64,000 nt of DNA from Escherichia coli. GTDB taxonomy: Bacteria; Pseudomonadota; Gammaproteobacteria; Enterobacterales; Enterobacteriaceae. This document shows, one piece after another, positions 25,801 to 28,800 of this stretch. A program made the position numbers. Position 1 is the first letter of the stretch. Each line of letters opens with the position of its first letter. The stretch is taken from the NCBI RefSeq assembly GCF_003019035.1, contig NZ_CP027447.1. One strand, given 5' to 3'.

Positions 25801-28800
25801 ATTCACGTTGTGATGCCTGAAAATCATCACTGGACTGCGTGGCCTGCTTCAGACGGGCATTGACTGAATTCCACTCATCGGCGAGAGAAATAAGATGACC
25901 GGTAGCAAAAGCCCCGGCAAATGCCTCCGCCATATTCAGTGCCGAAGACTTAGCTGTATTTATCTGATCCGTCACTTCTACCAGTGCACGCCGCATTTCA
26001 CGGGATGCTGCAGCGGACTGTCGGCCTCCGTTCTGCATGGTGCGGTAGTAATCCTGCCCCATGCGCGAAGCCCGGGCGATCTCTGACTGGAATGACCGGG
26101 AGTTTGCCGAGATTTTAATAATCAGTTCACGTAATGTCGCCACACTCATTCTCCGGACGAAAAAAAACCGCCGAAGCGGTTTTTGTATTCTTTAAAGAAG
26201 TCCGGCCTTACGCCTTGCTTCCTGAAGATATTCATCATCCGTTTTTTGTGAAACGGAACTATCTGCATTGCAAATTAAATCACTACCGCAATGCTTACAT
26301 TTAATCACCTCTTCTTTGTTCGGGTCTGCACAGGGATTCTTCATGTCATTGTTTACCATTTGTTATTCATATGGCTTCTCATTTCCAGGATTACAAGTGA
26401 ATGGATCAGAGCAACAATAAAGATCATCGAGCCATATATCCACCACCTTAAAAATGAGCAACCTTTGCTTTTCGTGATAATCGCCGGAATCAGCCCTAAA
26501 ATTATTGAAATAAGTACGAATTCCATCGATGCCTCCTTACTTACTCAATAAAACGGGAATAATAATTCAGTTATGTGGAAAATTCATCGGGATGCAACAA
26601 ATAACGCCCTCTCAATCTCAGCAAGTGGATCGCCCATATTATTTTCACAGGCGCATTCCCACTGAAGAAGTGCATCATTCAGTGGAACTTTAACCCCCTG
26701 CGCACCGTAAACAGCTGAAACAATCTGGGCAGCACGGATATCAGCCCGTTCGTCCCCCAGCGGGCTGAACCTGTCAAATTCTGCCCACATCATGATTTCT
26801 GATGCGGACATTTCCCGGCGTAATTCTGACAATGTACGCCCCATCCTGAGTGCCAGCATCATCAGAAAACGCATCCCCGGAAGCGCTACTTTTTTTTAAC
26901 CTCGCCGGCATCACTGATCAGTTCCAGAGACTGCCGAAGAAGCCGCGCATGCACCGGGCCATACACGGCAATCACCTGTTCACGATCATCCTCTGAAAAT
27001 ACAGGTTGCAGTCCGGTATCACACAGAACATCAATGAACAGTTCAACATCTGCCTCCAGATTTCGGCGGGCGCGCTCCGCAACGGATAACGGTGTCTCAT
27101 CATCTTTTGCTTTAACGATCTCCTGCCAGCGCAACCAGGCTTCTGCAGAAGGTTCCCGTAATACAACCGTTGCTCCTTCCCATTCAGGCACATCAACAGT
27201 TTTATGGCGAAACCCCGACATCGTTGCCAGTGCCAGATTACGGATATTTTTAGTCATCACACCCATCCTCATTAACTGACGGTTACAGTGCAGGAAGTGG
27301 AGGTCACTTTGTTAACCGGGCTTGCTGAATCAGAAATCTCGCAGGTATATGCGCCCGCATCACCGGATACTGCCAATGCCTTACTGAACGTTGCCGCCGT
27401 CTGTCCGGAAACAGGAGAACTACCTTTCTTCCAGACATAAGAATAAGGCGGCACACCTCCGGCAGCCTCAACCACCATTTCGAGTTTCGCTCCGGCAGAA
27501 ACCTGCAGCGTGCTGTTTAAATCGACCTTCACTTTCAGCGGCTCTGTCGCCAGCACAGGTTTACCTTTCAGGCGCAGGGAAAACGTTGCAGCCACAACAC
27601 CATTGGTTCCTGCAGACCAGGTATGCTGACGCACCTCTGCCATAAAGGTAAATCCGTTTCCTGACGGAAAAATAACTTTAAAGCCATACGTGGTGTCATT
27701 GTCATAGGCACTGCGCAACGCGTTCTGGGCAGCATTGAGGTAAAAGTTGCCTGACATGGAAATCTCTGACGCGGCACCAAGACCGTTAATATTTTCCTGC
27801 TCAACAGAACACAGCGTGGTGACATCAATATCCTGCTTTTGTCCTGCGGTAAACTGCACCTCTTTGATTGTACAGCTCAGGCCAAGATAGCTGGCAGAAT
27901 CCAGGGTTTCTGCTGTTACCGGTGCAGACGAAATCATAATTTTCGTCAGTTGCGAACGCTCAAAATTAGAGGACATACTCGTCTCCTGAAAATAAAAAAA
28001 CCCGCCAGCGGCGGGTGGGTAAAATCATTAACGACCTCAGGCTATTACCTGAAATTCAAGCGTGGCTCTGCTCAGACGGGAATCAGGATCATAACCCTGA
28101 GTTTTAGAAATAACGGAGGGTACAAGTTGCCTTACCGCATCAAGCGCCTGTTCCCGGATATCATCTGCGTCATCAGGCACCGTTGCCCAGACATCGATCT
28201 GCACGGTAATTCTGGATTCAGCCTGACCATCAAGCACATCAGACGCCGTGTCAGACACCACAGAAAACACCAGCCACGGCGGAGATACCGCAGGCTTTCC
28301 CTCCGTCAGCGGGACCACATAAGGATAAACCTGTCCTCCGGCCAACTGAGACAGCAGGGAATACAGTGTGGCTTCCCTCATTTACTTAAGACCTCATCAA
28401 TAGCCTGATTCATTCGCTGTATGGCAACCTGCGCCGCCAGCTCCTCTGTCGTATCGAAAGCCGGGCGAATGAATGGATGCGCGGGCATGTTTATCGTTCC
28501 CAGCTCCACAAAGCGCCAGTAAAACGCATTTCGGGGATCGCTGGCTTTCATGCTGTTATCACTGTTTCCGGTTCGTAGGTTCCGTCCGCGAATGTGGACA
28601 CCCGAGATAATTTCCCCCCGACGCTTTGAACGCTGCGTGAGAACAACCACATTTTTCTTCAGTTTCCCGGTTCGCTCCGGCGCACGTTCAACAACTGCAT
28701 CCCGCATAACTTCAGCACCTGCACGGGTGGCATCGCGCAGAACCTTATTGTTTTCTGCCCTGCTGAGCGTCTCCAGATCCCGTGCAATATCCGCCAGGCC

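What the first reader, a model, noticed from the sequence alone, without database searches (positions are those of the whole stretch)
26161..26583. Small-gene insert with its own terminator between T and H
Lambda has no gene between G-T and H. Here a ~420-bp insert carries a 57-aa two-helix membrane protein with a strong RBS, a possible 50-aa Cys-containing protein, and a strong terminator immediately before H. That is classic moron architecture, and small membrane morons often mediate superinfection exclusion.
Basis: seen in the sequence. Interest (0 to 1): 0.5.

Follow-up and report, generated by a model that had tools for sequence, protein, structure and literature searches.

The report
Broken moron gene before tape measure
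The ~430-bp insert between tail genes T and H of this E. coli prophage is a real "moron" in the slot where phage HK97 carries its exclusion gene 15, but its two small ORFs are the broken halves of one 113-aa membrane/zinc-ribbon gene that is intact in related prophages, so this copy is ordinary and probably defective.

Summary
The features are real, but they lie on the minus strand. T is 26874-26584 and the tape measure gene starts at 26149/26143.

Between them sit:
- a 57-aa two-helix ORF (26526-26353) with an AGGAGG ribosome-binding site;
- a 55/50-aa Cys-containing ORF (26359-26192);
- a CCGC-UUCG-GCGG hairpin followed by U8 (26184-26160).

About 95% of E. coli genomes with this tail module lack the insert, and its GC content is 37-41% against 50-58% in the flanks. 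It is therefore a moron at the HK97 gene-15 position.

The two ORFs are fragments of one gene. Relatives carry a single 111-115-aa protein with a transmembrane hairpin and a Cys4 zinc ribbon (phrog_8436, function unknown). The window copy has a 1-nt deletion, a nonsense codon in the ancestral frame, a 6-nt deletion that removes one Cys ligand, and neutral-looking substitutions in the ribbon half. The membrane half still looks constrained.

The terminator is not private to the insert: relatives without the insert, and relatives with other morons at the site, carry it too.

The family recurs in siphophage tail operons, usually directly upstream of the tape measure gene. A Pseudomonas relative in the same slot carries the T4 Imm domain (PF14373). 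Superinfection exclusion at DNA entry is the best guess for the intact family, but it is untested.

The parts
26584..26874 (-). Tail assembly protein T, made as a G-T fusion. Its last ~12 codons belong to the exchanged module.
   Evidence: PF06223 at 7e-19. T is in the -1 frame relative to G. Similarity to the insert-less relative M217 breaks down within the last ~35 nt of T.
26889..26895 (-). A_AAA_AAG slippery heptamer for the G to G-T -1 frameshift (context, not part of the insert)
   Evidence: Read from the sequence. The G ORF ends at 26886, and the -1 frame continues into the T ORF.
26559..26587 (-). Promoter-like motif: -35 ATGAAT (26587-26582, overlapping the T stop codon), 17-nt spacer, -10 TATTAT (26564-26559)
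   Evidence: The window matches 8 of 12 consensus positions, below the scanner threshold. A motif of the form GTGACA-17-TAGGAT sits at the same distance, its -10 hexamer ending 27-33 nt before the ATG, in 15 of 16 distinct upstream sequences of family members. Function is inferred.
26532..26537 (-). Shine-Dalgarno AGGAGG of the 57-aa ORF
   Evidence: Read from the sequence; 5 nt before the ATG at 26526.
26353..26526 (-). 57-aa ORF: the N-terminal transmembrane hairpin of the ancestral 113-aa gene (codons 1-46) plus an 11-codon out-of-frame tail
   Evidence: Matches phrog_8436 positions 1-51 of 110 at 7e-17. All 12 family-invariant residues are kept, with changes A18T and R23C at near-invariant positions. 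omega is 0.16 against the SC516 allele. Two hydrophobic peaks.
26387..26388 (-). Site of the 1-nt deletion that shifts the frame after codon 46
   Evidence: Alignment with intact alleles.
26363..26365 (-). TAA nonsense codon in the ancestral reading frame (CAA in intact alleles)
   Evidence: Codon-by-codon comparison.
26336..26337 (-). Site of the 6-nt deletion that turns KKCPYC into KNPC, so one of the four zinc ligands is lost
   Evidence: The Cys columns are invariant across the family in alignment A4 and at least 90% conserved in A3.
26192..26359 (-). 55-aa ORF (50 aa from the ATG at 26344): the decayed zinc-ribbon and C-terminal half of the ancestral gene
   Evidence: Matches phrog_8436 positions 69-108 at 8e-11. 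Zn_ribbon_3 scores only 16.8 bits against a cutoff of 27. pN/pS is about 1 in the linker and first half of the ribbon. From 26305 downstream it is 100% identical to SC516. No Shine-Dalgarno sequence.
26160..26184 (-). Intrinsic-terminator hairpin A5-CCGC-UUCG-GCGG-U8, symmetric so that it reads as a terminator on both strands
   Evidence: -11.3 kcal/mol, z = -4.8. The scanner reports it on the + strand. The same hairpin is present in insert-less M217 and after other morons. Equivalent hairpins follow nearly all family members.
22916..26154 (-). Tape measure gene with its GGAG ribosome-binding site (26154-26151). The true start is probably GTG at 26143 rather than ATG at 26149.
   Evidence: PF06120, PF20155 and PF09718. 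PGAP starts the gene at the GTG in the identical genome. The GTG aligns with the ATG of other phages.

Best explanation
The segment is a moron cassette sitting in the T / tape-measure junction of an HK97-type tail operon. This is the slot where HK97 carries gene 15.

The cassette consists of a weak sigma-70-like promoter that overlaps the T stop codon, a strong ribosome-binding site, one gene, and an intrinsic terminator just before the tape measure ribosome-binding site.

In intact relatives the gene encodes a 111-115-aa inner-membrane protein. It has an N-terminal two-helix hairpin with a short basic loop (motif GLIPAxIAxSKGRSFxxWWxYG...A..H), a linker, a CPxCAE...CxxCG Cys4 zinc ribbon, and an acidic C-terminal tail.

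The window copy is broken. A 1-nt deletion ends the protein after the hairpin. The ribbon half carries a nonsense codon in its old frame, has lost a zinc ligand, and has drifted neutrally. The '57-aa membrane protein' and the '50-aa Cys protein' are therefore the two halves of a pseudogenised gene. Only the 57-aa hairpin can still be translated efficiently.

Function is inferred, not shown. The intact family most likely acts like T4 Imm or HK97 gp15, sitting in the inner membrane of the lysogen and blocking genome entry by incoming siphophages. The window copy probably has reduced activity or none.

The terminator probably stops prophage-state transcription from running into the tape measure gene, while antiterminated late transcription reads through it. 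That step is also inferred.
For: One gene, not two:
- SC516, strain 500010, Salmonella phage FSL SP-016 and Cronobacter carry a single 111-113-aa ORF at the same place.
- The full-length protein matches phrog_8436 over positions 1-108 of 110 at 2e-50. The window fragments match positions 1-51 and 69-108.

Lesions in the window copy:
- A 1-nt deletion, a 6-nt deletion that removes a Cys, and an ancestral-frame TAA.
- In the linker and ribbon, 13.5 nonsynonymous against 2.5 synonymous changes (pN 0.18, pS 0.17). In the hairpin, 8 against 12 (omega 0.16). Fisher p = 0.006.
- PGAP annotates nothing here in the identical genome JNEC-KY180.

Not an assembly error: the exact 57-aa product is recorded on 211 contigs, a one-residue variant on 50 more and a third variant on one. 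All 14 sampled loci sit at the T / tape-measure junction.

Moron status:
- Only 42 of 903 genomes reach 80% coverage of a query that includes the insert, and 55 of 60 sampled records have the shorter insert-less span.
- GC drops in the insert.
- Other cargo occupies the same slot: a lipoprotein in Z1323 and YebO-like gp15 in HK97.
- The promoter-like motif keeps its position across the family, and a terminator follows nearly every copy.

Functional lead:
- HK97 gp15 in this slot is an inner-membrane superinfection-exclusion protein expressed from the prophage (PMC3594210).
- Pseudomonas phage YMC11/02/R656 has, in the same slot, PF14373 Imm_superinfect (1.6e-18) fused to the same type of zinc ribbon. 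BLASTP against the E. coli protein gives 5e-15.
- T4 Imm itself matches PF14373 at 7e-16.
- Of 80 viral-contig loci, 62 sit directly upstream of a tape measure gene and at least 76 of the 80 lie between recognisable tail genes.
Against: - No expression or phenotype data exist for any member of the family. I found no paper on it in the searchable library and no solved structure of a relative.
- The E. coli hairpin does not hit PF14373 even at E = 10. The profile-profile comparison gives only 50% probability and needs a 10-residue gap. PADLOC returns nothing relevant.
- The hairpin half still looks constrained. All 12 invariant residues are kept. There are no polymorphisms in its 138 nt against 6 in the following 197 nt among 15 copies of the broken allele (p = 0.045). 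The copy may therefore not be fully dead.
- The window promoter matches only 8 of 12 positions and fell below the scanner threshold.
- Membrane topology, and so the side of the membrane on which the ribbon sits, is unresolved.
Confidence: 0.68

Rival explanations
1. The 57-aa hairpin is still a working protein on its own. Loss of the zinc ribbon left a minimal inner-membrane module that continues to act, for example in exclusion, and is kept by selection.
For: - omega is 0.16 in codons 1-46, against about 1 downstream.
- All 12 family-invariant residues are retained.
- The AGGAGG ribosome-binding site and the promoter-like motif are intact.
- There are 0 polymorphisms in the 138 hairpin nucleotides against 6 in the next 197 among 15 copies, p = 0.045.
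- The exact 57-aa product and its two one-residue variants are recorded on 262 contigs.
- Most PF14373 proteins, T4 Imm included, are hairpin-only proteins of 55-125 aa.
Against: - Most of the low omega reflects history from before the break.
- R23C and A18T hit near-invariant positions.
- A profile search with the hairpin alone returned almost only ribbon-bearing proteins. The few short forms are scattered clusters of one to five sequences seen on one to three contigs, or partial sequences, and do not form a lasting lineage.
- The spread of the allele is explained by hitch-hiking with the prophage.
- PGAP does not call it.
Confidence: 0.3
2. One reading: two independent small genes (a membrane protein and a Cys protein) form a two-gene moron with a private terminator.
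For: Both ORFs exist. The ATG of the second ORF lies 1 nt before the stop of the first (ATGgTAA), an arrangement that could allow translational coupling.
Against: - The two ORFs align end to end with one ORF in relatives.
- The second ORF has no ribosome-binding site, has lost a zinc ligand, and evolves neutrally.
- The methionine it starts from already exists inside the intact protein.
- Gene callers never call it in the 14 sampled loci.
- The terminator is shared with insert-less relatives.
Confidence: 0.03
3. The intact family is not an exclusion factor. It might serve the phage's own cycle, for example a non-essential helper of tape-measure insertion or ejection, a lysis-timing or holin-like membrane protein, or protection of progeny. 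It might instead be a host-fitness factor unrelated to phage.
For: - The gene almost always points the same way as the tail genes and lies inside the tail operon, so it would also be made late in infection.
- Its tight adjacency to tape measure genes of three different families suggests a functional link to that protein.
- No defence-database hit.
- Some members carry extra soluble domains or several ribbons.
Against: - About 95% of prophages with a near-identical tail module lack the gene, so it is dispensable for tail function.
- The cassette carries promoter and terminator signals typical of prophage-expressed morons.
- In a Microcystis phage it lies on the opposite strand to the tail genes.
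- Its slot-mate gp15 and the Imm-domain relatives are associated with exclusion.
Confidence: 0.3
4. The frameshift is a sequencing or assembly artefact, and the gene is really intact in this genome.
For: Single-base indels are common assembly errors.
Against: - The deletion is not in a homopolymer.
- The same 57-aa product is recorded on hundreds of contigs from NCBI, ENA, JGI and Logan assemblies.
- Three further independent lesions are present: the TAA, the 6-nt deletion and many nonsynonymous changes.
Confidence: 0.01

Closest known systems
HK97 gene 15 moron (gp15, a YebO-like superinfection-exclusion protein; Juhala et al. 2000; Cumby et al. 2012, as summarised in PMC3594210)
   Same: - The same slot, between tail assembly protein T and the tape measure gene of an HK97-type tail operon.
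- A small membrane protein with a strong ribosome-binding site.
- Followed by a hairpin and U-run just before the tape measure start.
- Absent from related phages.
   Different: - The protein is unrelated. gp15 is 62 aa and matches PF13974 YebO. The window gene belongs to phrog_8436, with a two-helix hairpin and a zinc ribbon.
- The terminator has a different stem sequence.
- gp15 is intact and its function has been tested. The window copy is broken and nothing in its family has been tested.
WP_000394908.1 and relatives ('zinc ribbon domain-containing protein', phrog_8436) in E. coli, Salmonella phage FSL SP-016, Cronobacter, Enterobacter and others
   Same: They are orthologous. The DNA is 89% identical to SC516 across the insert region and 100% identical from 26305 downstream. 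They occupy the same slot and have the same flanks.
   Different: Those copies are single intact ORFs of 111-115 aa with all four Cys. The window copy is split and has three of the four.
T4 Imm and Pfam PF14373 (Imm_superinfect), including Pseudomonas phage YMC11/02/R656 gp065, annotated 'immunity to superinfection'
   Same: - A small inner-membrane hairpin with a basic loop.
- The Pseudomonas protein sits in the same T / tape-measure slot and fuses PF14373 to the same CPYCAE...C.YCG ribbon.
- BLASTP against the E. coli protein gives 5e-15.
- T4 Imm matches PF14373, and its record describes it as leaving superinfecting DNA in the periplasm.
   Different: - The E. coli hairpin does not reach PF14373 in an HMM scan.
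- It aligns only with a 10-residue gap, at 50% hhalign probability.
- T4 Imm has no ribbon and belongs to a lytic phage, not to a tail-operon moron.
Other morons in the same slot: the 113-aa predicted lipoprotein in E. coli Z1323CEC0016, and a lipoprotein next to a hairpin/ribbon gene in Pseudomonas phage vB_PaeS-D14C
   Same: The same junction and the same terminal hairpin with U-run, in Z1323.
   Different: The cargo proteins are unrelated, with signal peptide and lipobox features and no Pfam hit.

Membership tests
Moron (Juhala/Hendrix sense) | Extra DNA present in some but absent from otherwise syntenic relatives, lying between two genes without disrupting them | tested here: met
   Only 42 of 903 E. 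coli genomes with this tail module reach 80% coverage of a query that includes the insert, and 55 of 60 sampled records span 1078-1080 bp rather than 1473 bp. T and the tape measure gene are intact.
Moron (Juhala/Hendrix sense) | Base composition different from the surrounding genes | tested here: met
   GC is 37-41% across 26100-26700, against 50-58% on both sides.
Moron (Juhala/Hendrix sense) | Own promoter | tested here: inconclusive
   The window motif ATGAAT-17-TATTAT matches 8 of 12 positions and was not called by the scanner. A better motif, GTGACA-17-TAGGAT, sits at the same distance from the ATG in 15 of 16 distinct family upstream regions. There are no transcript data.
Moron (Juhala/Hendrix sense) | Own terminator | tested here: inconclusive
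   A strong hairpin with U8 follows the gene, and equivalent hairpins follow nearly all family members at four different junctions. At this junction, however, the identical hairpin is also present in insert-less M217. HK022, which has a different tail module, has no hairpin there.
Moron (Juhala/Hendrix sense) | Expressed from the repressed prophage | not testable with these tools
   Needs RNA-seq, 5'-RACE or proteomics on a lysogen.
phrog_8436 / transmembrane hairpin + Zn_ribbon_3 family | A single ORF matching the whole profile (hairpin, linker, ribbon) | tested here: not met
   The window has two ORFs in different frames, matching profile positions 1-51 and 69-108 separately. The SC516 protein matches 1-108 at 2e-50.
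phrog_8436 / transmembrane hairpin + Zn_ribbon_3 family | Four conserved Cys (CxxC ... CxxC) | tested here: not met
   The four Cys columns are invariant in alignment A4 and at least 90% conserved in A3. The window has NPC...CKHC, so one ligand has been deleted. Zn_ribbon_3 scores 16.8 bits against a cutoff of 27.
phrog_8436 / transmembrane hairpin + Zn_ribbon_3 family | Conserved hairpin residues (G11 P14 I17 K21 G22 F25 W28 W29 Y31 G32 A39 H42) | tested here: met
   All 12 are present in the 57-aa ORF. The near-invariant positions A18 and R23 are changed to T and C.
PF14373 Imm_superinfect (T4 Imm family) | Match to the Pfam HMM above the gathering score | tested here: not met
   Neither the 57-aa ORF nor the intact 113-aa protein gives a hit at E up to 10. 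T4 Imm (58 bits) and the Pseudomonas protein in the same slot (67 bits) pass.
PF14373 Imm_superinfect (T4 Imm family) | Remote homology by profile-profile comparison or through intermediates | tested here: inconclusive
   hhalign gives 50% probability and E = 1.6e-4 over 45 columns with a 10-residue gap. BLASTP against the Pseudomonas PF14373-plus-ribbon protein gives 5e-15, but much of that score comes from the ribbon.
PF14373 Imm_superinfect (T4 Imm family) | Blocks DNA entry of superinfecting phage | not testable with these tools
   Needs plating, adsorption and DNA-entry assays.
HK97 gp15 / YebO-like (PF13974) | Sequence membership in the YebO-like family | tested here: not met
   gp15 matches PF13974 at 1.2e-8. 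The window and SC516 proteins do not.
HK97 gp15 / YebO-like (PF13974) | Location between T and the tape measure gene of an HK97-type tail operon | tested here: met
Rho-independent terminator | GC-rich stem-loop immediately followed by a U-run | tested here: met
   CCGC-UUCG-GCGG core extended by A-U pairs, followed by U8. Energy -11.3 kcal/mol, z = -4.8.

The most novel reading that the evidence does not exclude
The hairpin + zinc-ribbon proteins (phrog_8436 and their PF14373-bearing relatives) would be a large, unstudied class of exclusion genes embedded in tail operons. They are distantly related to T4 Imm and ride immediately upstream of the tape measure gene in siphophages of Enterobacteria and Pseudomonas, and in a phage recorded as infecting Microcystis. 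They would block tape-measure-mediated genome entry at the inner membrane. On this reading the 57-aa remnant in the window would be a naturally minimised version, still selected, that shows the hairpin alone is the active module.
Probability: 0.2. Interest if true: 0.5.

Novelty: new member of a known kind. Interest (0 to 1): 0.3.

Why it matters
For this window it matters little. The insert is a decayed copy of a hitch-hiking prophage gene, and annotators should treat the two small ORFs as one pseudogene (or at most a truncated 57-aa product), not as two new genes.

At family level there is a modest lead. A conserved, uncharacterised membrane/zinc-ribbon protein repeatedly occupies the slot in front of the tape measure gene, where HK97 keeps its exclusion gene. 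Some relatives carry the T4 Imm domain. That makes a cheap experiment possible: test whether the family blocks siphophage DNA entry, and whether its specificity tracks the tape measure protein. Natural intact and truncated alleles are already available for comparison.

Tried and rejected
- **Pfam on the 57-aa ORF.** No hit even at E = 10.
- **PADLOC.** Only spurious weak hits (homing endonuclease, LmuB) driven by the ribbon.
- **PDB sequence search with the family profile.** Only generic zinc ribbons such as bL32, E above 0.04.
- **Rfam on 25900-27000.** Only sub-threshold hits that end at the terminator: rsmX 24.7 bits against 56, isrK 18.1 against 50. Rejected as chance.
- **Promoter scanner.** No minus-strand promoter upstream of the ORF at its threshold. 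The weaker motif emerged only from the family comparison.
- **Literature.** 'PF14373' returned no papers. Searches on moron, tape measure and zinc ribbon, and on 'superinfection immunity protein' with zinc ribbon, found nothing on this family. The Tab paper (PMC10884400) concerns a different moron between the terminase genes. Cumby 2012 and Tsao 2018 are not held.
- **SPOR domain in the Pseudomonas relative, as a topology clue.** E = 0.19, too weak to use.
- **Programmed frameshift or read-through restoring a full-length protein.** Rejected. The ancestral frame has a TAA two codons before the internal ATG, which leaves only about 7 nt in which a shift could work.
- **A stable hairpin-only lineage in the database.** Only sporadic independent truncations were found.
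- **Structure prediction.** Not run. It would not settle topology or function.
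Full report
**Anatomy.** The tail operon runs on the minus strand.
- The major tail protein is 27976-27272.
- The G-like chaperone is 27272-26886 (PF06222, 3e-58).
- T is 26874-26584 (PF06223, 7e-19).
- The tape measure protein is 26149-22916 (PF06120, PF20155, PF09718).
- G and T are linked by an A_AAA_AAG slippery site at 26895-26889, read from the sequence.

Between T and the tape measure gene lie three features:
- A 57-aa ORF (26526-26353), preceded by AGGAGG.
- An overlapping 55-aa ORF (26359-26192), which is 50 aa if counted from the second ATG.
- The hairpin A5-CCGC-UUCG-GCGG-U8 at 26184-26160, with -11.3 kcal/mol, z = -4.8 and 0 of 200 shuffles folding as well.

The 57-aa product has two hydrophobic segments separated by the loop KSKGCS.

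**Is it an insert?** Yes.
- A 1473-bp query running from G into the tape measure gene matched 903 of 5426 complete E. coli genomes.
- Only 42 of them covered at least 80% of the query.
- In an evenly spaced sample of 60 records, 55 spanned 1078-1080 bp, which is the arrangement without an insert.
- One sampled record had a different insert of similar size.
- Within the insert GC drops to 37-41%, against 50-58% in the flanks.
- One complete genome, JNEC-KY180, is identical across the insert region and 99.9% identical across the longer query. PGAP annotates nothing between T and the tape measure gene there.

**One gene, not two.**
- Strains carrying an 89%-identical insert have a single 113-aa ORF, annotated 'zinc ribbon domain-containing protein'.
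- That ORF matches phrog_8436 end to end at 2e-50. The two window ORFs match the profile's N-terminal half (positions 1-51) and C-terminal part (positions 69-108) separately.
- The alignment shows four differences in the window: a 1-nt deletion after codon 46, a CAA-to-TAA change in the old frame, a 6-nt deletion that turns KKCPYC into KNPC, and dense amino-acid changes up to 26306. From 26305 downstream the sequence becomes 100% identical to SC516.
- By Nei-Gojobori counting, the hairpin has 8 nonsynonymous and 12 synonymous differences (omega 0.16). The linker and first half of the ribbon have 13.5 and 2.5 (pN 0.18, pS 0.17). Fisher p = 0.006.
- Intact alleles that differ at saturating dS keep this stretch almost unchanged.
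- The four Cys are invariant across the family in one alignment and at least 90% conserved in the other.
- The ribbon half is therefore a pseudogene remnant. It also lacks a ribosome-binding site.

**This is not a sequencing error.**
- The exact 57-aa product is recorded on 211 contigs, a one-residue variant on 50 more, and a third variant on one.
- All 14 sampled loci have it between T and the tape measure gene.

**Is the 57-aa remnant alive?** This stays open.
- For: it keeps all 12 family-invariant residues. Among 15 copies of the broken allele there are no polymorphisms in its 138 conserved nucleotides against 6 in the next 197, p = 0.045.
- Against: it carries A18T and R23C at near-invariant positions. 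A profile search with the hairpin alone recovered almost only ribbon-bearing proteins. The few short forms are scattered independent truncations.
- I put roughly 30% on retained function.

**The terminator.**
- The same AACCGCTTCGGCGG-T8 element precedes the tape measure gene in the insert-less relative M217, only 10 nt after the T stop codon.
- It is also present after the unrelated lipoprotein moron of strain Z1323. A different stem plays the same role after HK97 gene 15.
- HK022, which has a different tail module and no moron here, has no hairpin.
- At this junction the hairpin is therefore not the private property of the insert. Insert-less relatives either kept it as a scar or have it as a standing feature of the junction.
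- Across the family, a GC hairpin with a U-run follows the gene at every type of junction examined. 'Gene plus terminator' is thus the usual form of the cassette.
- The left boundary of the exchanged module lies inside the last ~35 nt of T. This points to replacement by homologous recombination rather than site-specific insertion.

**The promoter.**
- The scanner found nothing upstream of the ORF.
- Comparing 16 distinct upstream regions shows a motif fixed in position. The -35 is GTGACA, GTGACT or TTGATA and overlaps the T stop codon. A 17-nt spacer follows. The -10 is TAGGAT or TAAGAT and ends 27-33 nt before the ATG.
- The E. coli alleles have ATGAAT or ATGATC at -35 and TATTAT or TATGAT at -10, which is 8 of 12 positions in the window.
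- This is suggestive but not proof.

**Where the family lives.**
- Intact homologues sit between T and the tape measure gene in Salmonella phage FSL SP-016 and in Cronobacter.
- The same is true of Klebsiella phage ST846-OXA48phi9.2, which has a tape measure protein of a different family.
- It is also true of two Pseudomonas phages.
- In a Microcystis phage the gene lies on the opposite strand, between the tail genes and a 633-aa ORF.
- Other copies lie between L and K (Edwardsiella) or between K and I (Atlantibacter).
- Of the 80 best IMG/VR loci, 62 are directly upstream of a tape measure gene, about 12 are at K-I, 3 at L-K and 1 between the tape measure gene and L. These 80 are the closest relatives, so the counts are not independent.

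**Function (inferred).**
- The slot is that of HK97 gene 15, the first moron to be described. Its product is an inner-membrane protein, expressed from the prophage, that blocks genome entry by HK97 and HK75 in a manner dependent on the phage tail (PMC3594210).
- gp15 is YebO-like and unrelated to the window protein.
- The Pseudomonas phage YMC11/02/R656 protein in the same slot carries PF14373 Imm_superinfect (1.6e-18) fused to the same CPYCAE...C.YCG ribbon. It aligns with the E. coli protein at 5e-15.
- T4 Imm matches the same Pfam domain.
- Direct evidence that the E. coli hairpin is an Imm domain is weak. There is no HMM hit, and hhalign gives 50% probability with a 10-residue gap.
- I therefore say the intact family probably works like Imm or gp15, but I do not file it in either family.
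- Topology is undecided, because the basic residues on the two sides of TM2 are nearly balanced.
- I found no solved structure of a relative, no defence-database entry and no paper on the family.

**Verdict.**
- This is a real moron at a classic hot spot, carrying a pseudogenised copy of an uncharacterised family.
- It is a new member of a known kind and is ordinary for this window.
- At family level it gives a modest, testable lead.

Noticed in passing
window 26141-26154 (minus strand): The mechanical ORF call starts the tape measure gene at ATG 26149, only 1 nt after the GGAG (26154-26151). GTG at 26143 has 7-nt spacing, aligns with the ATG of other phages, and is the start PGAP uses in the identical genome. 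It is probably the true start.
   Followed up: partly
L008 1048-1389 (E. coli Z1323CEC0016): A different moron occupies the same T / tape-measure slot. It is a 113-aa protein with a signal peptide and lipobox (…FISAC…) and no Pfam hit, followed by a hairpin with the same stem but a different loop (AGAA).
   Followed up: partly
L022 3012-3776 (Pseudomonas phage vB_PaeS-D14C): Two ORFs sit side by side between T and the tape measure gene: a lipoprotein-like ORF (…LSGCASS…) and a 103-aa hairpin + zinc-ribbon ORF. Neither is annotated on this strand in the record.
   Followed up: no
window 26160-26184, compared with loci L103-L116: Among copies of the broken allele, the A-run and the U-run flanking the terminator stem vary in length (A5 or A4, T8 or T7). 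This could alter terminator strength.
   Followed up: no
L005 2680-2710 (HK97) compared with window 26545-26521: The ribosome-binding region and first two codons of HK97 gene 15 (TAAGTAAAGGAGGCGTTATGGAA) resemble those of the window gene (TAAGTAAGGAGGCATCGATGGAA), although the proteins are unrelated. This could be a shared cassette edge or simply two near-perfect Shine-Dalgarno sites.
   Followed up: no
L004 5013-5335 (HK97 K-I junction): HK97 has a ~320-bp gap with no annotated gene between K and I, ending in an annotated putative terminator just before I. The hairpin + zinc-ribbon family occupies this same junction in Atlantibacter prophages. The gap may be an empty or decayed moron slot.
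   Followed up: no
L011 3501-6789 (Cronobacter, GCA_050602645.1): Downstream of an intact family member, the called gene combines tape-measure Pfam hits with IMS/UmuC-type polymerase hits. This suggests a truncated prophage joined to other DNA.
   Followed up: no
(phrog_5031 and phrog_19323 against residues 95-113): The last ~18 residues (…DDEYLQEARRKAGLL) also match the C-termini of two other PHROG families of unknown function. Together with the recombination breakpoint at 26305, this hints that different cargo genes share a 3' end.
   Followed up: no
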